Source of the DNA: Candidatus Limnocylindria bacterium
GTDB lineage: Bacteria > Chloroflexota > Limnocylindria > P2-11E
Assembly (NCBI GenBank): GCA_036394215.1
Contig: DASWFN010000086.1
Coordinates: forward strand, 1-62,054
Length of the DNA stretch: 62,054 nt
Reading direction: 5' to 3'
The translations under genes and the position numbers were made by a program. Below the pieces are notes generated by a model, which worked only from the letters and a program-made list of their open reading frames with translations, had not been told where the DNA came from and did not search any database. The first letter of the stretch is position 1. Each line of letters begins with the position of its first letter. Below, piece after piece: positions 23,647-35,229 of this stretch.

Positions 23647-23664
23647 GCGGGCGAGGCTAGCAGC

Positions 23665-23739: not shown

Positions 23740-24780
23740 GTGAGGTCCACGCAGGCACGTCGCAGCTTCGCGATCACGATCGCCATGGCCCTCGTCGTCG
23801 CGTGCGGCGGCACGGGGGCGCCGGCCGCGGTCACGAGCCCGTCGGCCGCGGCGAGCACCCCGACCCCGGCACCGACGATCGTCAAGCTCCGCGCCGCGTA
23901 CGGCAACGTGACCCCGGCGAACCTCGCGCCGTTCTACGCGAAGGAGAAGGGGATCTTCCTACAGAACGGCCTCGACGTGGATCTCCAGCTCATCGACGGC
24001 GGCGGCAAGTCCATGGCCGCGCTGCTCGGGGGCTCCGTCGAGATCGCGCAGCTCGGCGGGACCGAGCTGATGAACGCGTTCGTCGGCGGAGGGGACGTCG
24101 AAGCGGTCGCGCTCTTCGTGCCCGTCTCGCCGTGGGTGATGATGGCGCCCTCCAGCTACACCGGCCCGAACGACCTCAAGGGCAAGACCATCGGGATCGC
24201 ATCGAAGGGCGGCTCGTCCGAGATCGCCGCGAACCAGATGATCGACAAGCTGGGGCTCAAGCTGACCGACGTGACCATCCTCGCGACGGGCTCCACCGCG
24301 AACCTGACATCCGCGATGCTCGCAAAGCAGGTGTACGCGGGCCCGGGCCACCCGCCGGACACGGCCGCGCTGTTCAAGGCCGGCTACAAGGTCGTGGCCG
24401 ACCTGGCCGCGCAGAATGTGCCGGCGGTCGAGAACTGCACCATCGTCACCAAGAAATTCGCGACCGCGAACCCCGGCGTGATGCAGAAGTACGTCGACTC
24501 GCTCATCCAGGCCATCGTCGCGATGAAAAAGGACAAGGCCGGGACGCTGCCGGTCATGGAGAAGCTCCTCAAGGTCTCGGACCAGGATGCGCTGTCCCAG
24601 ACCTACGACTACTACGTGACGCAGATCTTCCCGGTGTACCCGACGGTCGCGCCGAAGGAGTGGACCTATAGCCGCGACGAGCTCGCCAAGACGACCCCGA
24701 CGGTGAAGGACCTCGACGTGACCAAGATCATCGACAACTCGTTCGTGAAGAACGCGCAGGAGAGAAAGGTCGGGGGATGA
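23740..24780 (+). CDS. ABC substrate-binding lipoprotein, NMT1/THI5 (SsuA/TauA-like) family
   Basis: Lipobox ALVVACGG. Paralog of 30887..31939 and 35261..36297 (shared KGIF..NGLDVDLQLI..G and LKGK.IG motifs). GTG start follows GGGAGGTGG. Confidence 0.8.
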   Translation: MRSTQARRSFAITIAMALVVACGGTGAPAAVTSPSAAASTPTPAPTIVKLRAAYGNVTPANLAPFYAKEKGIFLQNGLDVDLQLIDGGGKSMAALLGGSVEIAQLGGTELMNAFVGGGDVEAVALFVPVSPWVMMAPSSYTGPNDLKGKTIGIASKGGSSEIAANQMIDKLGLKLTDVTILATGSTANLTSAMLAKQVYAGPGHPPDTAALFKAGYKVVADLAAQNVPAVENCTIVTKKFATANPGVMQKYVDSLIQAIVAMKKDKAGTLPVMEKLLKVSDQDALSQTYDYYVTQIFPVYPTVAPKEWTYSRDELAKTTPTVKDLDVTKIIDNSFVKNAQERKVGG

Positions 24781-24841: not shown

Positions 24842-27004
24842 TTATCCGGCGGGCTTTGCCCGCCTAAGGGCGCGCCAGACCCTCTCGGCGGTGATCGGGA
24901 GGGTCTGGACGCGCGCCCCGCTCGCATCGTGCACGGCGTTCGCGACGGCCGCGGGCACTCCGGGGTTCAGGAGCTCGCCCGCGGAGCGCGAGCCGTACGG
25001 GCCGACGCCATGGTGGTCGCTCAGGTGGACGATCCGGAGCGGCGGCACGTCGGCGATGGTCGGCAGCTTGTAGTCGCCCAGGTTCGCCGCGCGCACGCGC
25101 CCGTCCTCGAGGGCCAGATCCTCGGTGAGGGCCATCCCGAGGCCGTAGACGAAGCCGCCCTCCAGCTGGCCCCGCAGCAGGACCGGATTGATGACCTGGC
25201 CGACGTCGACCACGGCCACTGCCGCGAGCAGCCGGACCGTCCCGGTCTCGGCGTCGACGGAGGCCTCGATCGCGATGGCGCAGGCGCCGTGGTCGGCCGC
25301 CGTCGCGTCGAACTTCGCGGATGCCTCGATCGTCTCGCCCGGGCCGAGCGACCTCGCGGCCTCGGCGACGCTCGTGCCGCCGAGCTTCGCCTGGAGCGCC
25401 TGCGCGGCCGCGAGCGCCGCGCCGCCGTGGACCGGGGTCACCCGGCTTCCGCCGATGCCGGGATCCTTCGGACCGTCGGTCGAGAGGCGGCGCACGCGAA
25501 TGACCGACGGATCGATCCCGAGCGTCGCCGCGACGATCCGCTGGATGAGGGTGTGCTGGCCGCCGCCCTGCTCCCCCACGCCGGTGGTGGCCTCGATCCG
25601 CCCATCGCGCTCGAGGCGCAGCGTGATCGTGGCCGACCCGGTGCCCACGTGGCGGACGCCGAGCGCGAAGCCGACGCCACGTCCGGGCTCGCGCTTGCGC
25701 TCCGCGCCGATCTCCGCCGCGGCGCGGTCGAGCAGCGCGTGCAGGTCCGGCCCGTGCCACGGCACGCCGCTCGTGATCGGATCGCCGGTGCGCGCGGCGT
25801 TCCGGCGCCGCAGCTCGAGCGGCGCGATGCCAAGCTCGCGCGCGATGAGGTCGAGGTGCGACTCCGACGCGAAGACGTTTTGCGGCTGTCCCGGCGCGCG
25901 CATGTGTCCGCCGGGGACCTGGTTCGTGTAGACGACCGCGGCCTCGTGCCGCGACGCGGGCACCCGATAGCCTTCGAGGGTCTGCACTCCGCCCTCGACC
26001 ATGAGGCGCGGCGTCGGCTTCCCGGCGGCGTAGGCCCCGCCGTCGAAGATCGCGCGCGACTCGTGGGCGACGATGCGCCCGTCCGCGTCGACGCCGGTGC
26101 GGAGACGGATGCGTGAGGCGTGCCGCGGGTTCATCGCGGTCAGCTCATCGGCCATCCGCGTGATCGCGCGCACCGGCCGGCCGGTGGCCTTCGCGAGGAA
26201 GTAGAGGACGTATTCGTCCGTCGAAAGGCCCTTGCCCCCGAAGTCGCCGCCGATCGGCCCGTTGTCGACGACGATGCGCTCCGGCGTGAGCCCGAGGCCC
26301 GCGGCCATCTGATCGCGGAGCGTGAACGGCGCCTTGTTCGTCGAGACCACGTGCACCCGGTCGTCCTCGATCCACACGACGGCCGCGTGGGGCTCGAGGG
26401 CCAGCTGATGGATCCTCGGGGTCGCGAACTCGTGCTCGAAGACGCGGGCCGCACCGGCGAACGCGGCGTCGACGTCGCCGCCGTGCGATTCCCTGACGTA
26501 GCCCTGATGGTTCGGGTGCGGTCCCGACGGCCGCGGGCCGCGGCCCTCGAGGAACCGATAGCTCGCGCTGTCCGGATGCAGCGCCGGCGCGCCGGGCGTG
26601 ATCGCGTCCTCCATGTCGAGGATCGCCGGCAGCTCCTCGTAGTCGACGTCGATCAGCCGCACGGCCTCGTCCGCGATCGCCCGTGTGTCCGCCGCGACGG
26701 CCGCGACGCGGTCGCCGACGAACAGCACCCGATCCCAACAGAGGACCGGCCAGTCCTGCAGCCGCCTGCCGAGCCGCGCGCCATTCACGTCGGCTCCCGT
26801 GATCACGGCGCGGACGCCGGGTAGCGCGCGGGCGCGCGACGCGTCCACCGAGCGGATCCGCGCGTGCGGATACGGGCTCCGCACGAACGCGGACTCGAGC
26901 GCGCCGGGGAGCGCGATGTCGGCGGTGTACTTCGTCGCGCCGTTCGTCTTGCCGTCGCCGTCGAGCCGCCGTTCCGGCGTGCCGAAGAGCGCCGGAGCGC
27001 TCAT
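24842..27004 (-). CDS. Xanthine dehydrogenase-family molybdopterin-binding large subunit (CoxL/HmfA-like), ~720 aa
   Basis: GGDFGGKG Mo-cofactor motif and C-terminal GSRSAGELLN (catalytic Glu context). I prefer ATG 27004 (ATGA overlap with the CoxG stop) over the track TTG 27028. Confidence 0.85.
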   Translation of the reverse strand: MSAPALFGTPERRLDGDGKTNGATKYTADIALPGALESAFVRSPYPHARIRSVDASRARALPGVRAVITGADVNGARLGRRLQDWPVLCWDRVLFVGDRVAAVAADTRAIADEAVRLIDVDYEELPAILDMEDAITPGAPALHPDSASYRFLEGRGPRPSGPHPNHQGYVRESHGGDVDAAFAGAARVFEHEFATPRIHQLALEPHAAVVWIEDDRVHVVSTNKAPFTLRDQMAAGLGLTPERIVVDNGPIGGDFGGKGLSTDEYVLYFLAKATGRPVRAITRMADELTAMNPRHASRIRLRTGVDADGRIVAHESRAIFDGGAYAAGKPTPRLMVEGGVQTLEGYRVPASRHEAAVVYTNQVPGGHMRAPGQPQNVFASESHLDLIARELGIAPLELRRRNAARTGDPITSGVPWHGPDLHALLDRAAAEIGAERKREPGRGVGFALGVRHVGTGSATITLRLERDGRIEATTGVGEQGGGQHTLIQRIVAATLGIDPSVIRVRRLSTDGPKDPGIGGSRVTPVHGGAALAAAQALQAKLGGTSVAEAARSLGPGETIEASAKFDATAADHGACAIAIEASVDAETGTVRLLAAVAVVDVGQVINPVLLRGQLEGGFVYGLGMALTEDLALEDGRVRAANLGDYKLPTIADVPPLRIVHLSDHHGVGPYGSRSAGELLNPGVPAAVANAVHDASGARVQTLPITAERVWRALRRAKPAG

Positions 27005-27441
27005 GTCGCCACCGTCCGGCGCAGGCAATCGGCGAAGCCCGCGAGCACTTTGTCGGCCTGGCGGGCGATGAGCGGCTGGCCGAGCTCGCCGATCCGGCCG
27101 AGGATCGTGACGTCGCTCGACACCCGGAGCTGGGTCGGCGCGTCACCGGTGAGCGCGACGTCGACGTGTGCCCGCACCGCGCCGCCGAGGCGGCGATCCT
27201 CCGCGTCCGCGCGCAATCGAGCGGTGCCGGCCGACTCGTCGCGCGACTCGACGGTCACGGTTCCGGACAGCGCGAGCTTCACCGGACCGACGCGCACCTC
27301 GAGCGTGCCGCGCACGCGCTCACCGTCCGCCGCGAGATCGCGCGTCCCGGGCACGCAGCCGGCCGCGACCGGGAGGTCCATGAGGATCGCCCAGACCCGC
27401 GCCCGCGGCGCGTCGATGGAGACGGTGTGCTCGAGCTTCAT
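27001..27441 (-). CDS. CoxG-like SRPBCC protein (146 aa)
   Basis: MKLEHTVSIDAPRARVWAILMDLPVAAGCVPG..., typical of the carbon-monoxide dehydrogenase subunit G family. ATGA overlaps on both sides. Confidence 0.75.
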   Translation of the reverse strand: MKLEHTVSIDAPRARVWAILMDLPVAAGCVPGTRDLAADGERVRGTLEVRVGPVKLALSGTVTVESRDESAGTARLRADAEDRRLGGAVRAHVDVALTGDAPTQLRVSSDVTILGRIGELGQPLIARQADKVLAGFADCLRRTVAT

Positions 27442-28286
27442 GCGACGTCGCGTAGCGCGCGCGCGGTCCACACACCGACCATCGCGCGCTTGTACTCGGC
27501 GCTTCCACGCAGGTCGGCGAGCGGGTCGGCGGCCGCGGTCGCGAGCGAGGCGGCCTCGGCGATCGCGGCGCCGTCGATACGGCGGCCCACCAGCGATCGT
27601 TCGGCGTCCTTCGCGCGGAACGGGATCGGGCCGGCGCCGCCGATGGCGATCCGCGCGTGGGTGCACGCGCCGCCCGGGTCGGTCGCGACGACGGCCGCGA
27701 CGGAGACCGTCGCGTAGTCGTCGAGCGTGTTCGGGAGGAACTTCCTGTATGTGGCCCGCGCGCCCGCCGGGAGCGGCGGCAGCTCGATCCGGAGGAGCAG
27801 CTCGTCCGGCTCCAGCGACGTCTCGAACACGTCGACGAAGAGCTCGTCCAGCGGGATCGTCCGAGCCCGGGCCTTCGACATCGCGATCGCGCGCGCGTCG
27901 AGCGCGAGCAGCGTGACCGGAGGGTCCTGGGCCGGATCGGCGTGGGCGAGGTTGCCGCCGAGCGTCGCCTGCTCGCGGATCCGCACCGTCGCGACGGACG
28001 CGAACGTCGCGGCGAGCGCGGGCGCGTGGCTGCGGACGGCGGCCGATCGCGCGATCCCGGCATGCGTCGCGAGCGCGCCGAGCCTGAGGCCGCCGGTCGC
28101 GTCGATCGCGCGAAGCTGGGCGATGCGCCGGAGGCCGATGACCCGGTCCGGGCGCACGAGGTCCTGCTTCATGAGGATCACCAGCGATGTCCCGCCCGCC
28201 ATGACGTGGGTGTCCTCGGCATCTTCGGCGAGCAGGGCCAGCGCCTCATCGAGCGTCTCGGGCTCGACGTACTCGAACGGCCTCAT
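27438..28286 (-). CDS. Xanthine dehydrogenase-family FAD-binding medium subunit (CoxM-like), 282 aa
   Basis: MRPFEYVEPETLDEALALL...VMAGGTSLV...ATLGGNLAH. Only one Cys in the whole protein. Start re-set to ATG 28286. Confidence 0.85.
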   Translation of the reverse strand: MRPFEYVEPETLDEALALLAEDAEDTHVMAGGTSLVILMKQDLVRPDRVIGLRRIAQLRAIDATGGLRLGALATHAGIARSAAVRSHAPALAATFASVATVRIREQATLGGNLAHADPAQDPPVTLLALDARAIAMSKARARTIPLDELFVDVFETSLEPDELLLRIELPPLPAGARATYRKFLPNTLDDYATVSVAAVVATDPGGACTHARIAIGGAGPIPFRAKDAERSLVGRRIDGAAIAEAASLATAAADPLADLRGSAEYKRAMVGVWTARALRDVA

Positions 28287-28747
28287 CGGCGCTGTGCGGC
28301 GGCGATCGCCCGCGCGATCCCGTAGTAGCCGGTGCAGCGACAGAGGTTCCCCAGCATCGCGTCCGTGACCTCCGCCTCGGTGGGCGCCGGATGGTCGCGC
28401 AGGAACGCGTCCGCCGACATGAGCTGTCCCGAGGTGCAGATGCCGCACTGGAACCCGCCCTCGGCGATGAAGGCTTCCTGCAGCGGCGAAAGCACGCCGC
28501 CGGCCGCGAGTCCCTCGACCGTCCGCACGGCCGAGCCGTCGATCTGGGTCGCGAGCAGCAGGCAGGCCGACATCGGCGCGCCGTCCACCTGGACCGTGCA
28601 GAGGCCACACACGCCGACGGAGCACCCGTCCTTCGTGCCGGTGGCGCCGAGGTCCTCCCGCAGCAGGTCGACGAGGAGCCGCTCCGCCGGGACGGTCGCT
28701 TCGCGCGTCGCGCCGTTCAGGGTGAAGCGGATGCGATGTTCGCTCAC
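28283..28747 (-). CDS. Xanthine dehydrogenase-family [2Fe-2S] small subunit (CoxS-like), 154 aa
   Basis: Two cluster motifs: GCSVGVCGLCTV and FQCGICTSG...CRCTGY. GTG start overlaps the ligase stop (GTGA). Confidence 0.9.
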   Translation of the reverse strand: MSEHRIRFTLNGATREATVPAERLLVDLLREDLGATGTKDGCSVGVCGLCTVQVDGAPMSACLLLATQIDGSAVRTVEGLAAGGVLSPLQEAFIAEGGFQCGICTSGQLMSADAFLRDHPAPTEAEVTDAMLGNLCRCTGYYGIARAIAAAQRR

Positions 28748-30264
28748 GAACGCAGCCGGAAGCGCTGGATCTTGCCCGTCGCCGTCTTCGGCAGCTCGCT
28801 CACCGGCTCGATCCAGCGCGGCTGCTTGTGCCGGGGCAGGCGCTCGGCGCAGAGCTCGGCGAGGCCTGCCGCGTCACCGCCCCGCAGCACGACGTACGCG
28901 CAGACCCGGACGAGACCATCCGCGTCGGCGCGGCCGACCACCGCGGCCTCGGCGACAGCGGGATGCGAGAGCAGCACCGACTCCACCTCCAGCGGCGAGA
29001 CCCACTGCGCGCCGACGCGCAGCATGTCGTCGTCCCTTCCCAGGTGAAAGTAACGTCCGTCGCGGACGCGGTACCGATCGCCGGTCACGACCCAGCCGTC
29101 GCGGAAGGTCGCGGCCGTGCGTTCGGGCCGATCGTGGTAGCCGACCGCGGTCGAGCCGCCCCGCACCCACAGCGTCCCTTCGTCGGCATCTTCCCCGTCG
29201 GCTCCGACCACGCGCGCCTCGTAGCCGGGTACGACGCGGCCCGACGAGCCCGGCATCACGTCGTCCACCGTATTCGAGATCGCGATGTGCCCGATCTCGG
29301 TCGAGCCGATGCCGTCGAGGATCGGGCGCCCGAAGCGCCGCTGCCACCGCTCGGCGATCGGCGGAGGCAACGCCTCGCCGGCCGAAACGCAGAGGCGCAG
29401 CGAGGACACATCGGCGCGTGCGCCCCCTTCCGCGGCCGCGAGCAGCGCGGCATAGGCCGTCGGAACGGTGAAGAGGATCGTCGGACGCTCGTCCGCGATG
29501 ACCCGCCAGGCGCGCTCCGCCGCGAACCGCTCGGGGTCGAGCACGACCGATGCGCCCGTCGCGAGCGGGATGAGCAACGAGTTGCCGAGGCCGTACGAGA
29601 AGAAGAGCTTCGCCGTGCTGTACACGCGGTCGGCGGGACCGATCGCCAGCACGTGCCGCCCGTACGCCCGCGCCGGGAACGCCGCGCGCTCGTGCAGGTG
29701 CATGACCGCCTTCGGCCTGCCGGTCGTCCCGCTCGAGTATTGCCAGAAGCACAGGTCGTCGCCCCGGGTCGGCGCCGCCTCGACCGGGCCGCCGGGCGCG
29801 ACCGGCGCATCGGCCTCGCCGATGCTCATCTTCGCGCCGCTGTCGCGGACCATGAACTCGAGCTCCTCGGGCCGCGCGACCGTCGAGAGCGGCACCGGGA
29901 TGGCACCCAGCTTCGCCGCGCCGAGGAACGCCGCGACGAACGCCGGCGAATCGCGCAGCACGATCGCCACCCGATCGCCGCGGGCCACGCCGCGCTCGCG
30001 CAGCGAGCGGACCATGCCGTCCTGCAGCGCGGCGACGTCGCCGTAGGTAAGCGTGTCACCGCGGTAGCGCAGGGCGGCGCGGGAGGCGTGGCCATCCGCG
30101 CACGCGGCGTCGGCGAGGGCGCTGGCGAGGTTGAACGCGGCTAGAGGTACTTGCGCCCGGCGAGCTTGTCCGGGATGACGAGCCCGAGCGCCGAGATCTT
30201 CGGGTCCATCTCGGCGATGTAGTCCCTGCGCATCTGGCCGTTCGTCCGCTTCTTCAGGCCCCAC
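28744..30264 (-). CDS. AMP-dependent aryl-CoA ligase (benzoate/furoate-CoA ligase-like)
   Basis: WQYSSGTTGRPK (AMP-binding box), YGLGN, GDRY...GRDDDMLRVG and the C-terminal lysine context KTATGKIQR. The only canonical in-frame start upstream of the conserved N-terminus is GTG 30264, 124 nt inside the preceding gene. Confidence 0.8.
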   Translation of the reverse strand: MGPEEADERPDAQGLHRRDGPEDLGARARHPGQARRAQVPLAAFNLASALADAACADGHASRAALRYRGDTLTYGDVAALQDGMVRSLRERGVARGDRVAIVLRDSPAFVAAFLGAAKLGAIPVPLSTVARPEELEFMVRDSGAKMSIGEADAPVAPGGPVEAAPTRGDDLCFWQYSSGTTGRPKAVMHLHERAAFPARAYGRHVLAIGPADRVYSTAKLFFSYGLGNSLLIPLATGASVVLDPERFAAERAWRVIADERPTILFTVPTAYAALLAAAEGGARADVSSLRLCVSAGEALPPPIAERWQRRFGRPILDGIGSTEIGHIAISNTVDDVMPGSSGRVVPGYEARVVGADGEDADEGTLWVRGGSTAVGYHDRPERTAATFRDGWVVTGDRYRVRDGRYFHLGRDDDMLRVGAQWVSPLEVESVLLSHPAVAEAAVVGRADADGLVRVCAYVVLRGGDAAGLAELCAERLPRHKQPRWIEPVSELPKTATGKIQRFRLRS

Positions 30265-30860
30265 TCGATGTAGCGCTCATCGCGCGCGGACTCGGAGCGA
30301 CCGAACATGTCGAGGCCGGTCACGTACCACTTGTCGATCGCTCGCTGGGCGGCCTCCGTGCCTTCGGCCGTCTCCATCATCTTCTGGAGCTCCTGCTCGC
30401 CGTACGCGACGTGGCCCTTCTCCTCGCGGAGGATCGTCGGCAGCACGTCGTCGGTCGGAAGGAACGACGAGCCGACCATCTCGTCGAGCTGATACTCGCC
30501 GACCTTGTCGATGAGGAAGCCGAATGCGGCGAAGTCGCCCCACTCGGGCATGTCGACCTTGAACGCATCGACTTCGCGCTGCGAGCGCGGCCGATAGAGG
30601 ATGTCGGACCGGTCGAGTCCGACCATCCCGAGCATCCGGAGGAACTTGCGGCAGTGGTCGATCTCCTCGGATGCGATCCGCGCGACGCGCCACTGGTCGT
30701 CGACCGTGGGCGCGCGGAGGGTCCAATGGTCCACGTAGATGTGCGGGCCGCCGATCTCGCAGTCGGCCTGGATGGTGAGAAGGCGGGTCAGCAGCTCGCG
30801 GTACTCCTCCGGCATCTTGCCGAAGTCGCCCGGCTCGATCCGGTCGGTGAACTGCGCCAC
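30141..30860 (-). CDS. Stand-alone PaaA/PaaC-family ferritin-like di-iron protein (239 aa)
   Basis: VAQFTDRIEPGDF...IQADCEIGG...ASEEIDHCRKF...GEYQLDEMVG...ILREEKGHVAYG gives an E...ExxH...D/E...ExxH ligand pattern as in PaaA. GTG 30860 follows AAGGAGG. The N-terminal 290 codons of track ORF 30141..31739 are shadow sequence. Confidence 0.65.
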   Translation of the reverse strand: MAQFTDRIEPGDFGKMPEEYRELLTRLLTIQADCEIGGPHIYVDHWTLRAPTVDDQWRVARIASEEIDHCRKFLRMLGMVGLDRSDILYRPRSQREVDAFKVDMPEWGDFAAFGFLIDKVGEYQLDEMVGSSFLPTDDVLPTILREEKGHVAYGEQELQKMMETAEGTEAAQRAIDKWYVTGLDMFGRSESARDERYIEWGLKKRTNGQMRRDYIAEMDPKISALGLVIPDKLAGRKYL

Positions 30861-30886
30861 TGACCCGCCTCCTTCTGCTGTGCCGG

Positions 30887-31939
30887 CTAGCCGCCGAGCT
30901 TCCGGTCCTGGGCGCTCTGCATGTACGTCCGATCGATCATCTTGCTGATGTCGACCTTCGCGATGTTCGGGTTGCCTTTGCCGAGGATCTCGACCGCGTC
31001 CTTGAACTGCGTCGTGTCGGGGAACAGGTAGGCGGACGTGACCTCGTTCATGAAGAAGTCGTACGCGGCCGACAGGGCCGTCGTGTCCGTGATCTTGAAG
31101 TACTTCGCCAGGATGTCCATCGATCCCTGCTTGTCGGCCTTCATCTTCGCGCGCGCGATCGTGAGCGAGTCGATGTACGCCTGGACGACGTCCTTGTTCG
31201 CGTTGAGGTAGGTGCGCTGCATGATGACGCCCGTGTTCGCGGCCGGAAGCTTCTGGCCGGCGAGATCGACGATCGCCGTCAAGCCGGCCTTCACGAGCTC
31301 GAGGTCCTCCGGCGGGTCGTCGACGCCGGCATCGATGGAGCCGGCGAGGAGGGCGGCGGTGCGATTGGCGTGGGAGCCGACCGCGACGATGGTCACGTCC
31401 TTGTCGGGATCGAGCCCGGCCGCCTTCAGCGCCGCGCGGGTCGCGATGTCGCTCGAGCCGCCGGCGTTCGACACGCCGACCTTCTTCCCCTTGAGGCCGG
31501 CGATGCTGGTGATGCCCTTCTGGGCGTAGAGCTTGTACGGGTAGACCGGGGCGAGGTTCGCGACGACCACGAGGTCGGCGCCGCCGGCGTTCGCGCTCAG
31601 CGCCTCGGCCCCGCCGAACTGGCCGATCTGGATCTGGTTCGCCAGGAGCGCGGCGCTCGTCTGCGCGCCACCGTTGATCGACTGGAGATCGACCTCGAGG
31701 CCGTTGTCCTTGAAGATGCCCTTCTCGAGCGCGTACCACGGGATCCAGTCGTCGGCGCTGATATTGCTGTACGCCGACACCACCTTCTTGCAGCAGGCCA
31801 GCTTCGCCGCGGCCGCGGGTGCGCTCGTTGCCGCGGCCGGTGCGGTCGTCGCGGCAGTGCCGCCGCCTCCACCCCCGCCGCCGCAGGCTGTCGCGAGGAT
31901 CGCGAGGATCGCGGTCACGACCACGAGACTCCGCTTCAT
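30887..31939 (-). CDS. ABC substrate-binding lipoprotein, NMT1/THI5 family (350 aa)
   Basis: MKRSLVVVTAILAILATACGGGGGGGGT lipobox plus Gly linker. Paralog of 23740..24780. Start re-set to ATG 31939. Confidence 0.8.
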   Translation of the reverse strand: MKRSLVVVTAILAILATACGGGGGGGGTAATTAPAAATSAPAAAAKLACCKKVVSAYSNISADDWIPWYALEKGIFKDNGLEVDLQSINGGAQTSAALLANQIQIGQFGGAEALSANAGGADLVVVANLAPVYPYKLYAQKGITSIAGLKGKKVGVSNAGGSSDIATRAALKAAGLDPDKDVTIVAVGSHANRTAALLAGSIDAGVDDPPEDLELVKAGLTAIVDLAGQKLPAANTGVIMQRTYLNANKDVVQAYIDSLTIARAKMKADKQGSMDILAKYFKITDTTALSAAYDFFMNEVTSAYLFPDTTQFKDAVEILGKGNPNIAKVDISKMIDRTYMQSAQDRKLGG

Positions 31940-31977
31940 CGCCACTCTCCCATCCATTCTCACCACCGCGCCACCTT

Positions 31978-32835
31978 CTATCGCCGGATCTGGGGCCGCC
32001 AGGCCTGGAATCGGTTCTCCAATCGCTGCAGGATCGTCGTGAGGAGCATGCCCGTGCCGGCGATGAGGATCACGCCGGCGAGCATCTTCGGCGTCTGGAA
32101 CGTCTGGCCGGCGATCGCGATGAGCTGGCCGACGCCGTGCCGCGCGGCAATGAGCTCGGCGACGACGACGCCGGTCAGCGCGTGGCCGATCCCGAGCCGG
32201 AAGCCCGTGAGGATGAACGGCACCGAGCCCGGCAGCACGACCCGCCGGAAGATGAGGGCGTCGGATGCGCCGAACGAGCGGGCGACGCGGAGCAGGGCAT
32301 TCTCGGTATTCCGGACGCCCGCCATCGTGTTGATGATGATCGGGAACAGTGCACCGAGGAAGATGACGGCGATCTTGGACGGCATGTCGATGCCGAACCA
32401 GATGATGAACAGCGGAATGAGCACGATGCGTGGCGTGCTGTAGAAGAAGTTCACGAACGGGTCCATCGCGTACTGGAAGCGCGTGTACCAGCCCATCCCG
32501 AGCCCGATGAGGAGCCCGACGAGGATCGCCATCCCGTAGCCGATGGCCATCTCCTGGCCGCTGGTGGCGATGTCGAGCCAGATCTCGTCGGTCTGGAACA
32601 GCTTCACGAAGGCCTGCGCGACGTCCGCCGGACCGGGAAGGAAGAGGACCGGCATGACCCGCGCGTTCGCCACCAGCTGCCAGACCGTCAGGACGAGGAT
32701 CACGGAGATCGTGCCGATGACCACCGGCTCGTACTGCTTCATGCGGCTCGGGCGGACGACCGACCGTCGCTCTTGCGTCGGATCGGTCTCGCTCCTCGTC
32801 ACCGGCAGGACGCGGTCGGCCTCTTTCACGGTCAT
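31978..32835 (-). CDS. ABC transporter permease (NitT/TauT family)
   Basis: 285 aa with 6 helices and the loop ARSFGASDALIFRRVVLPGSVP. Paralog of 6218..7045. Confidence 0.85.
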   Translation of the reverse strand: MTVKEADRVLPVTRSETDPTQERRSVVRPSRMKQYEPVVIGTISVILVLTVWQLVANARVMPVLFLPGPADVAQAFVKLFQTDEIWLDIATSGQEMAIGYGMAILVGLLIGLGMGWYTRFQYAMDPFVNFFYSTPRIVLIPLFIIWFGIDMPSKIAVIFLGALFPIIINTMAGVRNTENALLRVARSFGASDALIFRRVVLPGSVPFILTGFRLGIGHALTGVVVAELIAARHGVGQLIAIAGQTFQTPKMLAGVILIAGTGMLLTTILQRLENRFQAWRPQIRR

Positions 32836-33650
32836 GCGGCGGGCATCCCGGCGACGAGCCGCTCCGGCGGGACCGCGAGCTCCTCCTGGATGCTCTCCCA
32901 GATGCGGTCCTCGTAGACAAGGAACGCCGGGTCGCGCTTCACGCGGAGGTCGCGCGGCCGGGGCAGGTCGATCTCGACGACGTCCTTCACCCGGCCCGGC
33001 CGCCGCGTGAACACGATCACCCGGTCGGAGAGGTAGATCGCCTCCTTGATGTCGTGGGTGATGAAGAGCGCGGTCTTCTTCGTCTTCGACCAGATCTTCA
33101 GCAGCTCGAGCTGCATCGTCTCGCGGGTCTGCGCGTCGAGGGCCGCGAACGGCTCATCGAGGAGGAGCATCTGCGGATCGGTCAGGAGCGCGCGCGCGAG
33201 ATTCACGCGCTGCTGCATCCCTCCGCTCAATTCAAGGGGGTAGGCGTCCTCGAACCCGGCGAGGCCGACGAGCTCGATCTGCTGCCGGGCCCGGGCGACG
33301 GCATCGTGGTCCATCCGCCGCTGCGCTTCGACACCGAACAGCACGTTGCCGAGGACCGTGCGCCACGGCAGGAGTCCGGGCTGCTGGAAGACCATCGCGC
33401 GGTCCGGGCCTGGCGCGGTGATCTCGCGGCCGTCGAGCGTCAGGCTGCCGGCGCTGATCGGCTGCAGCCCGTCGACCGCGTTGAGGAACGTCGTCTTGCC
33501 GCAGCCCGACGGGCCGACGATGGCCAGGAACTCGCCCGGCCGCACCGTGAGGTCGACGCCCTGGACCGCGGTGAAGATCGAGCGCGAGCGGTTGAGCCAG
33601 TACTCGATGACGACGCCCTTCGCCGCCAGCTTCGCCGAGCGGTCGAGCAC
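32832..33650 (-). CDS. ABC transporter ATP-binding protein (NitT/TauT family)
   Basis: Walker A GPSGCGKTT, signature LSGGMQQR, Walker B LLLDEPF. ATGA overlap with the permease gene. Confidence 0.9.
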   Translation of the reverse strand: MLDRSAKLAAKGVVIEYWLNRSRSIFTAVQGVDLTVRPGEFLAIVGPSGCGKTTFLNAVDGLQPISAGSLTLDGREITAPGPDRAMVFQQPGLLPWRTVLGNVLFGVEAQRRMDHDAVARARQQIELVGLAGFEDAYPLELSGGMQQRVNLARALLTDPQMLLLDEPFAALDAQTRETMQLELLKIWSKTKKTALFITHDIKEAIYLSDRVIVFTRRPGRVKDVVEIDLPRPRDLRVKRDPAFLVYEDRIWESIQEELAVPPERLVAGMPAA

Positions 33651-33654
33651 CGCG

Positions 33655-35136
33655 CTAGCTCAGCTTCCCGTCGGACGGATGCGGCTCATTCCGGAGCAGG
33701 TACCCGAACTTCTCCTTCGCTTTGCGTTTGGTCTCCGGGCTCGGCGTGTTCACCGGCGGGAAGTCGGCCTTCCACTCGAACGGCCGGGTCGCGTCGATGA
33801 TCGCCCGCGAGCTGTGACCCTTGCGGTCGCGCGGGATGCGCGGGTCGAGCGGTCCGCTCCACGCGCGCTTGATGATGTCGATGGAATCGACCGGATCCGA
33901 CCGCGAGGCCATCGCCCAGATGACGTCGTTGAGGTCCATGACGTCGATGTCCTCGTCGACGACGATCACGTAGCGGCCGAGGTACGCGCCCGCGTGCACG
34001 GTCGCCGCGAGGTGACCGGCCTGGCGCGCGTGGCCCGCGTAGCGCTGCTCGATCGAGATCGCGTTGAACAGGCGCGAGCCGCCGACCTCGTGGCACCACA
34101 CGCCCTTGAGGCCGGGGAGGCCGGCCGCCTCGAGCTGCTGGCGGAGCTGCGCCGAGCGCAGGAAGGCGCGGTAGAACGACTGCTCGTCCGGCGGCTGGTT
34201 CGGCGGCGACCCGAGGATGATCGGATCGTTGCGGTGGTAGACCGCTTCGACCTGCATGAACGGCTCGGGGCGCGCGTCGCTCGCGTAGTAACCGGTCCAC
34301 TCGCCGAACGGACCTTCGACGATCCGCTCCTTCGGGTCGACCCAGCCCTCGATGACGATCTCGGCGTCCGCGGGCAGCGGGAGGCCGGTGACCGGACCCT
34401 TCACGACCCGGAACGGCTCGCCGCGAACGCCGCCGGCCCAGTCGTACTCGGTGAGGCCGAACTGGACCTCGGTCGCGGCGGCGAGGAACAGCAGCGGGTC
34501 GCCGCCTGCGACGAACGCGATCGGCATCTTCTCCCCGCTCGCGATCCACGCGTCGCGGTGCATCCGGCCGTGCTTGCCGGGGGAGATGTAGAAGCCCAGC
34601 TTGTCCTTGCCGTGGACCATCACGCGGTAGCAGCCGAGGTTGACCCAGCCGTTGTCCTTGTCCCGCGTGATGTCGAAGCTGCCGGTGCCGATGTAACGAC
34701 CACCGTCGTCCTCGTGCCACTTCGGCGCCGGGAAGATCGTCATGTCGACGTCCGCGCCGCGCTTCACGTTCTCGAAGATCGGGCCGTCCTTCACCTCGAT
34801 CGAGGGGATCGGCTTGATGCCGTCGGAGACGCGCTTCTGCCACGCCTTCACGAGGTTCTCGGGCGACTCCTTCGGATCGAGGCCCAGCGTCAGGGCGAGA
34901 CGCGGGAACCAGCCGAGCGAGTTCGAAAGGACCCGGAAGCCCTTCTTGTAGCCGGGGATCTCGTCGAAGAGGAGCGCCGGCGTGCCGTGCACGCGGCCGG
35001 CGAGCTCGGTCGCCATGCCGATCTCGTCCTCTGAGCGAGCGCCTCGCACGACCCGAAGCTCACCGAGCTCGTCGATGCGCTTCAGCCAGTCGCGCAGGTC
35101 GCGGAAGGTCCGGGTCGGGCGCTCGGCGACGGCCAT
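33655..35136 (-). CDS. UbiD-family prFMN-dependent (de)carboxylase (493 aa)
   Basis: MAVAERPTRTFRDLRDWLKRIDELGEL...GTGSFDITRD...IVEGPFGEWTGYYA (the E-x4-E acid/base motif as in Fdc1-type enzymes)...HEVGG. Start re-set to ATG 35136. Confidence 0.9.
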   Translation of the reverse strand: MAVAERPTRTFRDLRDWLKRIDELGELRVVRGARSEDEIGMATELAGRVHGTPALLFDEIPGYKKGFRVLSNSLGWFPRLALTLGLDPKESPENLVKAWQKRVSDGIKPIPSIEVKDGPIFENVKRGADVDMTIFPAPKWHEDDGGRYIGTGSFDITRDKDNGWVNLGCYRVMVHGKDKLGFYISPGKHGRMHRDAWIASGEKMPIAFVAGGDPLLFLAAATEVQFGLTEYDWAGGVRGEPFRVVKGPVTGLPLPADAEIVIEGWVDPKERIVEGPFGEWTGYYASDARPEPFMQVEAVYHRNDPIILGSPPNQPPDEQSFYRAFLRSAQLRQQLEAAGLPGLKGVWCHEVGGSRLFNAISIEQRYAGHARQAGHLAATVHAGAYLGRYVIVVDEDIDVMDLNDVIWAMASRSDPVDSIDIIKRAWSGPLDPRIPRDRKGHSSRAIIDATRPFEWKADFPPVNTPSPETKRKAKEKFGYLLRNEPHPSDGKLS

Positions 35137-35202: not shown

Positions 35203-35229
35203 TCAATTGGCAAATGGTTATACCACTGG
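35203..35229. promoter_or_regulatory. GntR/FadR-type operator-like palindrome upstream of the ubiD operon
   Basis: TCAATTGGCAAATGGTTATACCACTGG. The core TGGTTATACCA (reverse complement TGGTATAACCA) matches T.GT-N3-AC.A on both strands. It lies about 70-90 bp upstream of the ubiD ATG. Confidence 0.4.

What the first reader, a model, noticed from the sequence alone, without database searches (positions are those of the whole stretch)
24842..35136. Ten-gene coupled operon: UbiD decarboxylase, ABC importer, orphan PaaA-like di-iron protein, aryl-CoA ligase and CoxS/M/G/L-type Mo-hydroxylase
All ten genes are on the minus strand with gaps of 38 nt or less or with overlaps: ubiD, ATPase, permease, SBP, paaA-like, ligase (overlapping), then GTGA, ATGA, ATGA and ATGA junctions through the 2Fe-2S, FAD, CoxG and Mo subunits. 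Together with the nearby crotonase (37140-37916), alpha/beta hydrolase, aldehyde dehydrogenase and the distal ubiX, the parts list resembles the furoate/2,5-furandicarboxylate genes of Cupriavidus basilensis HMF14. In that system hmfABC encode a Mo furoyl-CoA dehydrogenase, hmfD a ligase, hmfE a crotonase-type hydrolase and hmfFG a UbiD/UbiX pair. It also resembles thiophene-, pyrrole- and pyridine-carboxylate or phthaloyl-CoA routes. Three things differ here: everything is welded into one operon with its own NitT/TauT-type importer; a CoxG gene sits between the FAD and Mo subunits; and a single-subunit PaaA-like di-iron oxygenase is placed directly before the ligase. I do not recognise that combination from any described pathway. 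The FAD subunit has only one Cys, so it lacks the extra Fe-S insertion of 4-hydroxybenzoyl-CoA reductase. That favours a hydroxylating (oxidative) enzyme.
Basis: partly seen in the sequence, partly recalled or inferred. Interest (0 to 1): 0.7.

Follow-up and report, generated by a model that had tools for sequence, protein, structure and literature searches.

The report
Aromatic-acid breakdown operon, uncultured soil Chloroflexota
This is a real, tightly packed ten-gene operon of uncultured soil bacteria (Candidatus Limnocylindria) that most likely imports an unidentified aromatic carboxylic acid, removes a carboxyl group, attaches coenzyme A and attacks the ring with a molybdenum enzyme and a di-iron oxygenase, a combination I found in no described pathway.

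Summary
Ten minus-strand genes (24842-35136) encode UbiD, an ABC ATPase, permease and binding protein, a PaaA-like di-iron protein, an aryl-CoA ligase, and 2Fe-2S, FAD, CoxG and Mo subunits. Junctions are 4-nt overlaps or gaps of 38 nt or less.

The DNA is from Candidatus Limnocylindria (Chloroflexota). The same order recurs on many independent soil contigs.

The furoate/FDCA (Hmf) reading is not supported.
- The UbiD is 46% identical to phenazine-1-carboxylate decarboxylase PhdA.
- It is 54% identical to an Aromatoleum EbN1 plasmid UbiD that sits beside the same kind of ABC importer in a phthalate island. HmfF is far more distant.
- The ligase belongs to the benzoate/anthranilate-CoA ligase family.
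- The Mo enzyme is an unplaced XDH-family clade. It lacks the CODH loop and the 4-HBCR Fe-S insertion.

The PaaA-like gene is not an orphan oddity. PaaA-like, ligase and Mo subunits form a module conserved across the class. The PaaA-like gene is usually paired with a larger BoxB-like paralogue. In other lineages the pair sits with NuoEF-like reductase, crotonase and aldehyde dehydrogenase genes.

A conserved TGGTATAACCA site upstream of ubiD and of a ThDP-enzyme gene suggests one GntR-controlled regulon.

The substrate is unknown. I rate it a new variant of CoA-dependent aerobic aromatic catabolism.

The parts
35215..35225 (-). Palindrome TGGTATAACCA, the core of a 24-nt conserved block about 80 nt upstream of the ubiD start. 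Predicted operator of a FadR-type GntR regulator. It marks the likely promoter region of the ten-gene operon.
   Evidence: The block is invariant in 9 aligned relatives, while the rest of the spacer does not align (51% mean column identity). This holds whichever gene lies upstream. The operator assignment is inference from the TGGT-N3-ACCA consensus, which I take from my own knowledge.
33655..35136 (-). UbiD-family prFMN-dependent (de)carboxylase, 493 aa, of the PhdA/EbN1-plasmid clade.
   Evidence: UbiD_N, UbiD and UbiD_C domains are present, and TIGR00148 is passed (283.5 bits against a cut-off of 244.85). It is 46% identical to PhdA (7PDA, 380 bits); HmfF scores 166 bits and Pcd 44 bits. 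It is 53.6% identical to A. aromaticum EbN1 plasmid protein WP_011255029. The EGPFGE and GGRY motifs are kept.
32832..33650 (-). ABC transporter ATPase, NitT/TauT type.
   Evidence: It has the ABC_tran domain. The best NCBIfam matches are nitrate, taurine and SaoA ATPases, all below their cut-offs. It is 44% identical to the ATPase beside the EbN1 UbiD homologue.
31978..32835 (-). ABC transporter permease.
   Evidence: It has the BPD_transp_1 domain and is SaoP/TauC/SsuC-like. It overlaps the ATPase gene by ATGA.
30887..31939 (-). NMT1/SsuA-type lipoprotein substrate-binding protein, 350 aa.
   Evidence: It matches NMT1, NMT1_2 and Phosphonate-bd. The N-terminus carries a lipobox (LATAC). It is 39-47% identical to two further SBP genes that flank the operon.
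30141..30860 (-). PaaA-like di-iron carboxylate protein, 239 aa, the predicted catalytic oxygenase subunit.
   Evidence: PF05138 scores 96 bits. PaaA (TIGR02156) scores 95 bits against a cut-off of 280, and BoxB 44 bits against 499. All six PaaA iron ligands align: E35, E66, H69, D118, E147 and H150. The AF2 model has pLDDT 85.7. It matches the PaaA catalytic chain best (TM 0.83), ahead of PaaC at 0.69-0.71. It shares with UbiD the highest conservation in the cluster.
28744..30150 (-). Aryl-CoA ligase of the benzoate/anthranilate-CoA ligase family. The start is unresolved; the open frame extends to GTG 30264.
   Evidence: TIGR02262 is passed (449.8 bits against a cut-off of 375.25). The best solved relatives are anthranilate-CoA ligase 4WV3 (342 bits) and benzoate-CoA ligase 2V7B (338 bits). 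The start problem is described.
28283..28747 (-). 2x[2Fe-2S] small subunit of an XDH-family molybdoenzyme.
   Evidence: It has Fer2_2 and Fer2 domains. Eight Cys lie in the canonical positions. It overlaps the ligase gene by GTGA.
27438..28286 (-). FAD-binding medium subunit, CoxM/KdhM type, without a 4Fe-4S insertion.
   Evidence: It has FAD_binding_5 and CO_deh_flav_C domains. It aligns end to end with KdhM and CutM, but scores only 67 bits in pieces against HcrB. It has one Cys.
27001..27441 (-). CoxG (SRPBCC) protein encoded between the FAD and Mo subunit genes.
   Evidence: PF06240 scores 54 bits. ATGA overlaps join it to both neighbours. It holds this position in every related locus.
24842..27004 (-). 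Molybdopterin-binding large subunit, 720 aa, of an unplaced XDH-family clade.
   Evidence: It has Ald_Xan_dh_C, MoCoBD_1 and MoCoBD_2 domains. The best matches are 4-HBCR alpha (272 bits in the PDB; 410 bits against a cut-off of 994.55 in NCBIfam), Qor at 246 bits and CODH at 239 bits. It carries GGDFGGK and a C-terminal AGE, and has no AYxCSFR or AYRGAGR loop. Identity to any plasmid-borne homologue is 35% or less.
35335..37937 (-). Upstream co-directional unit: crotonase (37140-37937), alpha/beta hydrolase (36328-37143, whose GTG start overlaps the crotonase stop) and a third NMT1 SBP (35335-36315). A 198-nt spacer carrying the conserved site separates this unit from ubiD.
   Evidence: Searches give the genes. 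A crotonase or hydrolase lies directly upstream of ubiD in L008, L011, L012 and L021.
38019..39458 (+). Aldehyde dehydrogenase, divergent from the crotonase gene.
   Evidence: Aldedh scores 554 bits and no equivalog cut-off is reached. It is syntenic in L003, L008, L011, L012 and L021.
22379..24780 (.). Downstream conserved neighbours: a second NMT1 SBP (23740-24780, +), a flavin reductase (23101-23673, -) and a class II aldolase-fold protein (22379-23104, -).
   Evidence: The best match of the aldolase-fold protein is 3,4-dihydroxyphthalate decarboxylase PhtC, at 81 bits against a cut-off of 200. The three genes are syntenic in most window-type loci. In L016 the flavin reductase lies directly before ubiX.
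16201..19371 (.). Putative regulon partners: ubiX (about 16201-16790, -), a GntR/FCD regulator (16788-17549, -), the related site AGGTATAACAA (17582-17592) and a ThDP-dependent enzyme (17632-19371, +).
   Evidence: In distant loci the ThDP gene lies in or next to the module, for example in the order ThDP, ligase, PaaA in L036.

Best explanation
This is a GntR-regulated catabolic operon of Candidatus Limnocylindria for an imported aromatic or heteroaromatic carboxylic acid. The substrate is unidentified. My leading candidates are phthalate-type polycarboxylates and phenazine-, quinoxaline- or quinoline-type carboxylates.

Proposed sequence of steps:
1. A NitT/TauT-type ABC importer takes up the acid. 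Three paralogous lipoprotein binding proteins serve it.
2. A PhdA-type UbiD removes one carboxyl group. Its prFMN cofactor would be made by the nearby UbiX, with reduced FMN supplied by the flavin reductase.
3. A benzoate/anthranilate-type ligase makes the aryl-CoA thioester.
4. Two metalloenzymes attack the ring of the thioester. An XDH-family Mo hydroxylase (FeS, FAD, CoxG and Mo subunits) inserts a water-derived hydroxyl. A PaaA-type di-iron oxygenase epoxidises or hydroxylates the ring with O2.
5. The neighbouring crotonase, alpha/beta hydrolase, aldehyde dehydrogenase and ThDP enzyme process the ring-opened CoA esters.

Shown here: the gene content, the family placements, the synteny, conserved catalytic residues and iron ligands in UbiD, the Mo subunit and the PaaA-like protein, and the conserved upstream site.

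Inferred: the substrate class, the order of the steps, that the Mo enzyme acts on the CoA ester, and that the di-iron protein is an aryl-CoA oxygenase.
For: Gene content and tight coupling:
- establish the ten genes and their junctions.
- The same ten-gene order occurs on many independent contigs.
- The module PaaA-like, ligase, FeS, FAD, CoxG, Mo is conserved through the class. The ligase lies directly before FeS in 39 of 50 scorable loci. Of 18 Mo-seeded loci with enough upstream DNA, 17 carry the PaaA-like gene and the ligase and 1 carries the PaaA-like gene alone.

UbiD:
- Catalytic motifs are intact and it falls in the PhdA clade.
- The closest homologue from a cultured organism lies beside the same type of ABC importer in the EbN1 phthalate island.
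- ubiX and a flavin reductase lie nearby. In L016 they are adjacent to each other.

Ligase: it passes the benzoate-CoA ligase family cut-off.

Di-iron protein:
- It keeps all six PaaA iron ligands and is closest in fold to the PaaA catalytic chain.
- In other lineages its orthologues sit with a larger PF05138 paralogue, a NuoEF-like NADH reductase module, two crotonases and two aldehyde dehydrogenases. That is a Box/Paa-like gene set.
- In Rokubacteria the orthologues sit with a ligase, a crotonase and a UbiD.

Mo subunit: it keeps the XDH-family GGxFGxK motif and the C-terminal Glu, and lacks the CODH loop. The FAD subunit lacks the 4-HBCR insertion.

Linkage beyond this lineage: a cultured Paraburkholderia links a 46%-identical UbiD with CoxG, an XDH-type enzyme, XdhC and an AMP-ligase.

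Regulation: the conserved TGGTATAACCA site lies upstream of ubiD, and a related site lies upstream of the ThDP or SBP2 genes.
Against: - No component reaches the equivalog threshold of a characterised enzyme apart from family-level models. Substrate and reaction order therefore rest on context.
- The ligase is missing in cis in L008, L009, L031, L054 and L083. Both the ligase and the PaaA-like gene are missing in L053, which still has the Mo genes. The Mo enzyme therefore need not act on a CoA ester, nor depend on the di-iron protein.
- The window has no PaaB, PaaC, PaaD or PaaE, no BoxA, and no NuoEF-like partner for the di-iron protein. It also lacks the BoxB-like paralogue that most relatives have.
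- The crotonase and the aldehyde dehydrogenase are generic. They are not BoxC, BoxD or PaaZ types.
- Co-transcription was not tested.
- The ligase start is unresolved.
Confidence: 0.55

Rival explanations
1. Hmf-type route. FDCA or a related five-membered heteroaryl dicarboxylate is decarboxylated by an HmfF-like UbiD. It is then activated by an HmfD-like ligase and hydroxylated at C5 by an HmfABC-like heteroaroyl-CoA dehydrogenase. A crotonase-type hydrolase follows.
For: The parts list is formally the same: a UbiD/UbiX pair, a CoA ligase, a three-subunit Mo dehydrogenase and a crotonase. Ligase directly followed by Mo genes suits a CoA-ester hydroxylase. The Hmf pathway is described in PMC3223595.
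Against: The UbiD is much closer to PhdA (380 bits) and to the EbN1 plasmid UbiD (520 bits) than to HmfF (166 bits). The highly conserved hmfABCDE order (PMC3223595) is not seen here. The crotonase lies in another unit and is a generic hydratase. Hmf clusters have no di-iron protein, and the papers read here do not list a CoxG or a ThDP enzyme.
Confidence: 0.05
2. Phenol/4-hydroxybenzoate-type hybrid route. The UbiD interconverts a phenolic compound and its carboxylate. The ligase makes a 4-hydroxy- or 4-amino-aroyl-CoA. The Mo enzyme works reductively like 4-hydroxybenzoyl-CoA reductase to give benzoyl-CoA. The di-iron protein then epoxidises benzoyl-CoA as BoxB does.
For: The best match of the Mo subunit is 4-HBCR alpha. 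The best NCBIfam match of the UbiD is phenylphosphate carboxylase beta. The ligase is of the benzoate-CoA ligase family. The di-iron protein is related to PaaA and BoxB. From my own knowledge, the trio UbiD, ligase and 4-HBCR is known from anaerobic phenol and aniline metabolism.
Against: All these matches fall far below the equivalog cut-offs (410 against 994.55 bits; 297 against 469 bits). The FAD subunit lacks the 4Fe-4S insertion that feeds low-potential electrons into 4-HBCR. An ABC importer does not suit a phenol substrate. The UbiD is closer to PhdA than to any phenolic acid decarboxylase.
Confidence: 0.07
3. Redox-coupled pair. The FeS/FAD chain of the Mo hydroxylase is the electron donor of the di-iron oxygenase. 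The two electrons released by the water-dependent hydroxylation pay for O2 activation at the di-iron site. The two ring oxygenations would then need no NAD(P)H reductase.
For: In other lineages the small and large PF05138 pair is encoded with a NuoE/NuoF-like NADH reductase module and no Mo enzyme. In more than 100 Limnocylindria loci there is no such reductase, and the pair instead sits next to the FeS, FAD, CoxG and Mo genes. The PaaA-like gene stays next to the Mo genes even where the ligase is lost (L008, L009, L031, L054, L083). The PaaA-like protein is unusually conserved: 76% identity where Mo is 57% and the ligase 51%. That fits a protein with several partners.
Against: The evidence is purely contextual. 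L053 keeps the Mo genes without the PaaA-like gene. Family members occur alone with unrelated neighbours. A reductase could be encoded elsewhere in the genome. I know of no precedent for an XDH-family enzyme donating electrons to a di-iron oxygenase.
Confidence: 0.12
4. A mosaic rather than one linear CoA pathway. The ubiD-ABC unit is a portable import-and-decarboxylate cassette. The Mo enzyme hydroxylates a free N-heteroaromatic acid or oxidises an aromatic aldehyde. The ligase and di-iron protein serve a later or parallel branch.
For: The ubiD-ABC unit exists on its own in the EbN1 plasmid. It is fused to the module only in the nearest relatives. In distant loci UbiD, ABC and ThDP genes are shuffled around the module. 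The ligase is dispensable in cis, and in L053 the PaaA-like gene is too. The FeS and FAD subunits match glyceraldehyde dehydrogenase subunits best. Qor scores almost as well as 4-HBCR.
Against: The ligase is translationally coupled to the FeS gene by a GTGA overlap in this window and in 39 of 50 scorable loci. UbiD recurs beside ligase or Mo genes in other lineages: Rokubacteria with a ligase, Paraburkholderia with a ligase and Mo genes. A single conserved upstream site precedes the whole operon.
Confidence: 0.2

Closest known systems
Hmf furoate/FDCA pathway of Cupriavidus basilensis HMF14 (hmfABCDE plus hmfFGH; PMC3223595)
   Same: Both have a UbiD/UbiX decarboxylase, an acyl-CoA synthetase, and a three-subunit Mo dehydrogenase acting on the CoA ester. 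Both follow the logic of removing one carboxyl and activating the other.
   Different: The UbiD is not of the HmfF clade (166 bits against 380-520 bits). The gene order differs. This cluster has an ABC importer rather than the MFS transporters shown for hmf clusters, and it also has CoxG, a di-iron protein and a ThDP enzyme. No HmfH oxidase or HmfE-type thioesterase was identified.
Benzoyl-CoA (Box) and phenylacetyl-CoA (Paa) aerobic hybrid pathways
   Same: Both have an aryl-CoA ligase of the benzoate-CoA ligase family and a PF05138 di-iron protein with the full ligand set and a PaaA-like fold. A crotonase and an aldehyde dehydrogenase lie nearby.
   Different: The scores lie far below the PaaA and BoxB cut-offs (95 against 280 bits; 44 against 499 bits). 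There is no PaaB, PaaC, PaaD, PaaE or BoxA. The crotonase and aldehyde dehydrogenase are not BoxC, BoxD or PaaZ types. A Mo enzyme is welded to the module.
PhdA, phenazine-1-carboxylate decarboxylase of Mycolicibacterium fortuitum (PDB 7PDA; PMC10850782)
   Same: PhdA is the closest solved relative of the UbiD: 46% identity over 448 aligned positions. The loop that carries the catalytic Glu (EGPFGEW) is conserved.
   Different: At 46% identity the substrate need not be the same. As far as I know, PhdA works with PhdB as a stand-alone pair. Streptomyces plasmid homologues are likewise lone UbiD-UbiX pairs. They are not parts of an importer, ligase and Mo operon.
UbiD WP_011255029 with its ABC importer in the phthalate island of Aromatoleum aromaticum EbN1 plasmid 2
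   Same: This is the closest homologue from a cultured organism (53.6% identity). It is directly linked to an SBP-ATPase-permease transporter of the same family (ATPase 44% and permease 32% identical).
   Different: The EbN1 gene is uncharacterised as far as I could find. Its neighbours are Pcd-type UbiD/UbiX pairs and CoA transferases, not a ligase, a Mo enzyme or a di-iron protein.
4-hydroxybenzoyl-CoA reductase (HcrABC; PDB 1RM6)
   Same: It gives the best-scoring match for the Mo subunit. It is an XDH-family enzyme that acts on an aryl-CoA.
   Different: The match scores 410 bits against an equivalog cut-off of 994.55 bits. The FAD subunit lacks the 4Fe-4S insertion. A CoxG subunit is present.
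Uncharacterised cluster on the Paraburkholderia caribensis MBA4 megaplasmid (L133)
   Same: It contains a UbiD (46% identical), CoxG, XDH-type FAD, Mo and FeS genes, an AMP-ligase and transporters within 15 kb.
   Different: It has no PF05138 gene. It uses MFS transporters instead of an ABC importer. XdhC and LysR genes are present. Its Mo subunits are only 32-45% identical.

Membership tests
UbiD family (prFMN-dependent decarboxylases) | Three-domain UbiD architecture and a score above the family cut-off. | tested here: met
   UbiD_N, UbiD and UbiD_C domains are all present. TIGR00148 scores 283.5 bits against a cut-off of 244.85.
UbiD family (prFMN-dependent decarboxylases) | Conserved catalytic Arg and the Glu-x4-Glu loop. 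| tested here: met
   GGRY is at residue 145 and EGPFGE at residue 274. They align to the PhdA loop that holds the catalytic Glu269.
UbiD family (prFMN-dependent decarboxylases) | A UbiX flavin prenyltransferase is available. | tested here: met
   ubiX lies at about 16201-16790 and is 52% identical to E. coli UbiX.
HmfF (2,5-furandicarboxylate decarboxylase) | Closer to HmfF than to other characterised UbiD clades. | tested here: not met
   HmfF (6H6V, 6H6X) scores 165-166 bits, against 380 bits for PhdA and 189 bits for HudA.
Phthaloyl-CoA decarboxylase (Pcd) | Sequence similarity to Pcd. | tested here: not met
   Pcd (8OZ5, 8PMK) scores 44-45 bits. Identity to the Pcd-type UbiDs of EbN1 is 24%.
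Benzoate-CoA ligase family (TIGR02262) | A score above the curated family cut-off. | tested here: met
   It scores 449.8 bits against a cut-off of 375.25. The best solved relatives are an anthranilate-CoA ligase and benzoate-CoA ligases.
HmfD and HmfA (furoyl-CoA synthetase and dehydrogenase) | Orthology to the C. basilensis proteins. PMC3223595 used at least 40% similarity (its word) plus the hmfABCDE order. | not tested
Gene order differs from hmfABCDE.
Xanthine dehydrogenase / Mo-hydroxylase family | Separate 2x[2Fe-2S], FAD and MoCo subunits with the canonical domains. | tested here: met
   All the expected Pfam domains are present. The small subunit has 8 Cys in the canonical pattern.
Xanthine dehydrogenase / Mo-hydroxylase family | The GGxFGxK motif and the C-terminal catalytic Glu. 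| tested here: met
   GGDFGGK is at residue 252 and AGE at residue 675. That this Glu is the catalytic base is inferred from its position in the family.
4-hydroxybenzoyl-CoA reductase | A 4Fe-4S-binding insertion in the FAD (beta) subunit. | tested here: not met
   The subunit is 282 aa with one Cys. HcrB matches only in pieces (67 bits), with an offset of about 40 residues.
4-hydroxybenzoyl-CoA reductase | Equivalog score for the alpha subunit. | tested here: not met
   It scores 410.2 bits against a cut-off of 994.55.
Aerobic CO dehydrogenase (CoxL) | Active-site loop AYxCSFR (form I) or AYRGAGR (form II). | tested here: not met
   Neither motif is present. The scores are 249 bits against a cut-off of 991 and 219 bits against 950.
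PaaA (phenylacetyl-CoA epoxidase catalytic subunit) | The six di-iron ligands and the PaaA fold. | tested here: met
   E35, E66, H69, D118, E147 and H150 align to the PaaA ligands and are invariant in 22 sequences. The TM-score to PaaA chains is 0.83.
PaaA (phenylacetyl-CoA epoxidase catalytic subunit) | Equivalog score and the partner genes paaB, paaC, paaD and paaE. | tested here: not met
   It scores 95.1 bits against a cut-off of 280. No partner genes appear among the annotated neighbours.
BoxB (benzoyl-CoA 2,3-epoxidase) | Equivalog score, a length of about 470 aa, and a BoxA partner. | tested here: not met
   It scores 43.8 bits against a cut-off of 499.1 and is 239 aa long. The 434-aa BoxB-like paralogue of relatives scores only 59-63 bits and is absent from the window.
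NitT/TauT-type ABC importers | An NMT1/SsuA-type SBP, a TauC/SsuC-type permease and a TauB/NtrD-type ATPase. | tested here: met
   The matches are at family level only. Every equivalog cut-off is missed, so the substrate cannot be called.

The most novel reading that the evidence does not exclude
The XDH-type molybdoenzyme and the PaaA/BoxB-type di-iron oxygenase form one electron-coupled system. The two electrons released when the Mo site hydroxylates the aryl-CoA with water would travel through its FeS/FAD chain, possibly with the help of CoxG, to the di-iron site. There they would activate O2 for a second ring oxygenation. The pair would then replace the NADH reductase (BoxA, PaaE or the NuoEF-like module) that every other member of this oxygenase family uses. 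The di-iron pair itself would also represent a third, undescribed branch of aryl-CoA epoxidases beside Paa and Box.
Probability: 0.12. Interest if true: 0.85.

Novelty: new variant of a known kind. Interest (0 to 1): 0.55.

Why it matters
Limnocylindria are uncultured Chloroflexota, and essentially every hit here came from soil or groundwater metagenomes. XDH-family genes can be mistaken for CO dehydrogenase. This one is not a CO dehydrogenase. It belongs to a conserved aromatic-acid catabolic module.

The cluster points to three testable things:
- A compact, very conserved PF05138 subfamily that may be a third type of aryl-CoA oxygenase. Only 45 clusters at 50% identity score 1e-30 or better among 1.84 billion proteins.
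- A fixed genetic link between such an oxygenase and a Mo hydroxylase.
- A portable UbiD-plus-ABC-importer unit shared with the phthalate island of Aromatoleum.

UbiD enzymes, aryl-CoA ligases and Mo hydroxylases are all sought as biocatalysts for aromatic and plastic-derived acids. Identifying the substrate would therefore have practical value.

Tried and rejected
- Hmf orthology is rejected for the UbiD on scores. I could not obtain HmfA or HmfD sequences. A tblastn of the Mo subunit against plasmids gave only hits of 35% identity or less. The one context I inspected (Rhizobium pTH2a) was a hydantoinase cluster, not hmf.
- CO dehydrogenase is rejected because the active-site loop is absent.
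- 4-HBCR membership is rejected.
- Searching plasmids with the PaaA-like protein found only relatives of 34% identity or less, and the two contexts I inspected were a different subfamily, linked to radical SAM and thioesterase or MaoC genes. They were not informative.
- SBP comparisons with the PDB and with plasmids gave only remote hits and no clue to the ligand.
- The ThDP enzyme has no close solved or curated relative.
- Rfam, tRNA and consensus promoter and terminator scans found nothing beyond chance. There is no riboswitch and no internal terminator.
- Literature searches for this gene combination and for the third UbiD of EbN1 found nothing relevant.
- Streptomyces plasmid homologues of the UbiD are lone UbiD-UbiX pairs.
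- I looked for a slippery heptamer that could explain the ligase start by -1 frameshifting and saw none.

Full report
**Observation.**
- The genes are UbiD, ABC ATPase, permease, an NMT1-type lipoprotein binding protein, a 239-aa PF05138 protein, an AMP-dependent ligase, a 2x[2Fe-2S] subunit, an FAD subunit, CoxG and a molybdopterin subunit.
- I read the junctions from the sequence. They are a 4-nt gap, an ATGA overlap, gaps of 38 and 26 nt, and then GTGA, ATGA, ATGA and ATGA overlaps.
- The FAD subunit has one Cys, and the small subunit has the eight canonical Cys.
- The crotonase, alpha/beta hydrolase, aldehyde dehydrogenase and distal ubiX are also real.

**Origin and recurrence.**
- The PaaA-like protein occurs exactly on two metagenome contigs.
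- Its relatives, at 73-92% identity, carry the names Candidatus Limnocylindria or Chloroflexi wherever a source names them.
- A scan of GTDB species genomes gave 42 loci, nearly all of them Limnocylindria MAGs from soil and groundwater.
- A tblastn of the window's proteins against these loci shows the full ten-gene order, with the same flanks, in the nearest relatives. Those flanks are a second binding protein, a flavin reductase and a class II aldolase-fold gene on one side, and a third binding protein, the hydrolase, the crotonase and the aldehyde dehydrogenase on the other.
- A second scan, seeded with the Mo subunit in metagenome contigs, gave 71 more loci with the same picture.
- The arrangement is therefore real, inherited and under selection.

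**What is core and what varies.**
- The six-gene module PaaA-like, ligase, FeS, FAD, CoxG, Mo is found throughout the class. It occurs either in that order or as FeS, FAD, CoxG, Mo, PaaA-like, ligase.
- Of 50 scorable loci, the gene directly before FeS is the ligase in 39, the PaaA-like gene in 4, the binding-protein gene in 1 and the BoxB-like paralogue in 1; in the remaining 5 none of the tested genes lay directly before FeS.
- Of 18 Mo-seeded loci with enough upstream DNA, 17 carry the PaaA-like gene and the ligase and 1 carries the PaaA-like gene alone.
- L053 has lost both the PaaA-like gene and the ligase but keeps the Mo genes.
- The ubiD-ABC block is fused to the module only in the nearest relatives. 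In more distant loci a 71-75%-identical UbiD, NMT1 binding proteins, ABC genes and a ThDP enzyme lie nearby in shuffled order. L036, for example, reads UbiD, SBP, SBP, ThDP, ligase, PaaA.
- In those distant loci a second PF05138 gene of 434-441 aa usually lies just upstream of the 240-aa gene, directly adjacent in some loci and separated by other genes in others. It has both ExxH motifs, and its best, weak match is BoxB. It is absent from this 62-kb window.
- One MAG (CF_48) carries both module types, so they are paralogues within a genome (L015 and L025).
- Among window-type loci, UbiD (92%) and the PaaA-like protein (91%) are the most conserved products, and the ligase (73%) is the least conserved of the ten operon products.

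**Placement of the parts.**

*UbiD.*
- The best solved relative is 7PDA (380 bits, 46% identity). This is phenazine-1-carboxylate decarboxylase PhdA of Mycobacterium fortuitum.
- HudA, VdcC, Fdc1, HmfF (166 bits) and AroY are far lower, and phthaloyl-CoA decarboxylase is marginal.
- The closest homologue in a cultured organism is an uncharacterised UbiD on plasmid 2 of Aromatoleum aromaticum EbN1, at 53.6% identity and 520 bits. That gene directly follows an SBP-ATPase-permease transporter of the same family. The transporter lies inside the island that also carries the Pcd-type UbiD/UbiX pairs and CoA transferases.
- Paraburkholderia caribensis MBA4 links a 46%-identical UbiD with CoxG, XDH-type FAD, Mo and FeS genes, XdhC, an AMP-ligase and MFS transporters.

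*Ligase.* It passes the benzoate-CoA ligase family model. Its best solved relatives are an anthranilate-CoA ligase and benzoate-CoA ligases.

*Mo subunit.*
- 4-HBCR alpha is the best hit, but far below the equivalog cut-off. Quinoline oxidoreductase, CODH and KdhL score almost as well.
- It keeps GGDFGGK and the C-terminal AGE, and it lacks the CODH loops.
- The FAD subunit aligns end to end with KdhM, CutM and CoxM and lacks the HcrB insertion.

*PaaA-like protein.*
- It keeps all six PaaA iron ligands, which are invariant in 22 sequences.
- A confident model (pLDDT 85.7) matches the PaaA catalytic chain best (TM 0.83), ahead of PaaC and BoxB.

**The di-iron family outside this class.**
- Starting from the Rokubacteria homologue (57% identical to the window protein), the family extends to Rokubacteria, Nitrospiraceae and Deltaproteobacteria MAGs.
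- On Mb-scale contigs the 241-aa gene lies in a set of two aldehyde dehydrogenases, a crotonase, a 367-aa PF05138 paralogue, NuoE-like and NuoF-like genes, the 241-aa gene itself and another crotonase. This is a Box/Paa-like set with its own NADH reductase and no Mo enzyme.
- In Rokubacteria the pair sits with a ligase, a crotonase and a UbiD fragment.
- Elsewhere the gene stands alone.
- The subfamily is compact. Only 45 clusters at 50% identity score 1e-30 or better in 1.84 billion proteins.

**Regulation.**
- A 24-nt block around the perfect palindrome TGGTATAACCA (35215-35225) is invariant upstream of ubiD in nine aligned relatives. The rest of the spacer does not align, and the conservation holds whichever gene lies upstream.
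- A related site lies in the GntR-ThDP spacer of the window (17582-17592). It also lies directly upstream of ThDP genes or SBP-ThDP operons in distant loci.
- The half-sites fit FadR-type GntR operators, as I know them.
It also suggests one regulon that includes the ThDP enzyme.
- Rfam, tRNA and consensus promoter and terminator scans added nothing.

**Interpretation.**
- The best reading is a CoA-dependent aerobic catabolic operon for an imported aromatic or heteroaromatic carboxylate. The steps would be import, prFMN-dependent decarboxylation, CoA ligation, and ring attack by a Mo hydroxylase and a di-iron oxygenase. Downstream processing would fall to the crotonase, hydrolase, aldehyde dehydrogenase and ThDP enzyme.
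- The flavin reductase next to ubiX in L016 suggests that it supplies reduced FMN for prFMN synthesis (inference).
- The substrate is not identified. The EbN1 context and the weak PhtC-like match of the aldolase-fold protein point to phthalate-type polycarboxylates. The PhdA and anthranilate-CoA ligase affinities point to N-heteroaromatic acids.
- The Hmf analogy works as logic but fails as orthology for the one component I could test.
- The 4-HBCR reading fails on a defining feature.
- A mosaic reading stays open, because the ligase and, rarely, the PaaA-like gene are dispensable in cis.
- The most novel reading is that the Mo enzyme's electron chain replaces the NADH reductase of the di-iron oxygenase. 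It rests only on the mutually exclusive contexts and on the persistence of the PaaA-like-Mo pair.

**Open point.**
- The ligase frame runs through the PaaA stop codon with no canonical start at its conserved N-terminus.
- Twenty-one distinct junctions align without indels from the stop onward.
- The upstream GTG (30264) is blocked by in-frame stops in L011 and L057.
- Downstream starts would delete about 45 conserved residues.
- I could not resolve how the ligase is initiated.

Noticed in passing
window 35204-35228 and 17582-17592; L034 19278, L053 10251, L045 18407, L036 2640: A conserved palindrome, TGGTATAACCA, lies upstream of ubiD. A related site, (A/T)GGTATAACAA, lies upstream of ThDP or SBP-ThDP genes. 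These are probably operators of the adjacent GntR/FCD regulator and would define a regulon wider than the ten genes.
   Followed up: partly
window 30141-30264, the PaaA-like/ligase junction: The ligase has no canonical start codon at its conserved N-terminus, and its frame runs through the PaaA stop. The overlapping GTG 123 nt upstream is blocked by in-frame stops in two relatives. Possible explanations are non-canonical initiation, reinitiation, or a recoded PaaA-ligase fusion.
   Followed up: partly
L124, L125, L128, L129 (about 3000-11700 in each): In another lineage the 241-aa PaaA-like gene lies in a set of two aldehyde dehydrogenases, a crotonase, a 367-aa PF05138 gene, NuoE-like and NuoF-like genes and another crotonase. 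This looks like an undescribed Box/Paa-like oxygenase system with a complex-I-type reductase.
   Followed up: partly
L133 (Paraburkholderia caribensis MBA4 megaplasmid, 1700-15700): A cultured proteobacterium carries FAD, Mo and FeS genes, an MFS transporter, XdhC, an AMP-ligase, LysR, a UbiD 46% identical to the window's, CoxG and a second MFS transporter. The record is unannotated and, as far as I know, the cluster is uncharacterised. It could serve as a tractable model for the UbiD-Mo-ligase link.
   Followed up: partly
L132 (A. aromaticum EbN1 plasmid 2, 12171-16452): An SBP-ATPase-permease-UbiD unit sits between the two Pcd-type UbiX/UbiD pairs of the phthalate island. Its UbiD is the closest cultured homologue of the window's UbiD. 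I found no report of its function.
   Followed up: partly
L015 and L025 (both from MAG CF_48, VBFI01): One MAG carries both a window-type module (PaaA-like 93% identical, no BoxB-like partner seen) and a BoxB-like-containing module (PaaA-like 76% identical). The modules are therefore paralogues and may have different substrates.
   Followed up: no
L053 1205-2661; L008 10717-10728; L009, L031, L054, L083: There are natural deletion variants. The ligase is missing between the PaaA-like and FeS genes in five loci. In L053 both the PaaA-like gene and the ligase are missing, while the Mo genes remain.
   Followed up: yes
L001 (GCA_009772455.1, WNFI01630831.1): A near-identical copy of the operon carries frameshift-like breaks. 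UbiD is split into 340 and 110 aa, the ligase is not called, FeS and Mo are truncated, and the downstream class II aldolase gene is not called (a 171-aa ORF with no Pfam hit stands in its place). The window and L002 are intact, so these are probably assembly errors rather than pseudogenes.
   Followed up: no
window 23740-24780, 30887-31939, 35335-36315: Three paralogous NMT1-type lipoprotein binding proteins (39-47% identical) surround a single permease/ATPase pair. This suggests uptake of several related substrates.
   Followed up: partly
window 14831-16204 (+): This is an F420-dependent glucose-6-phosphate dehydrogenase (TIGR03554, 507 bits against a cut-off of 420). The called ORF carries about 125 extra N-terminal residues. 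The organism therefore uses F420.
   Followed up: no
window 19368-20744 (-): An alpha/beta hydrolase domain is fused to an adenylate/guanylate cyclase catalytic domain. The gene is syntenic in the two exact-match contigs.
   Followed up: no
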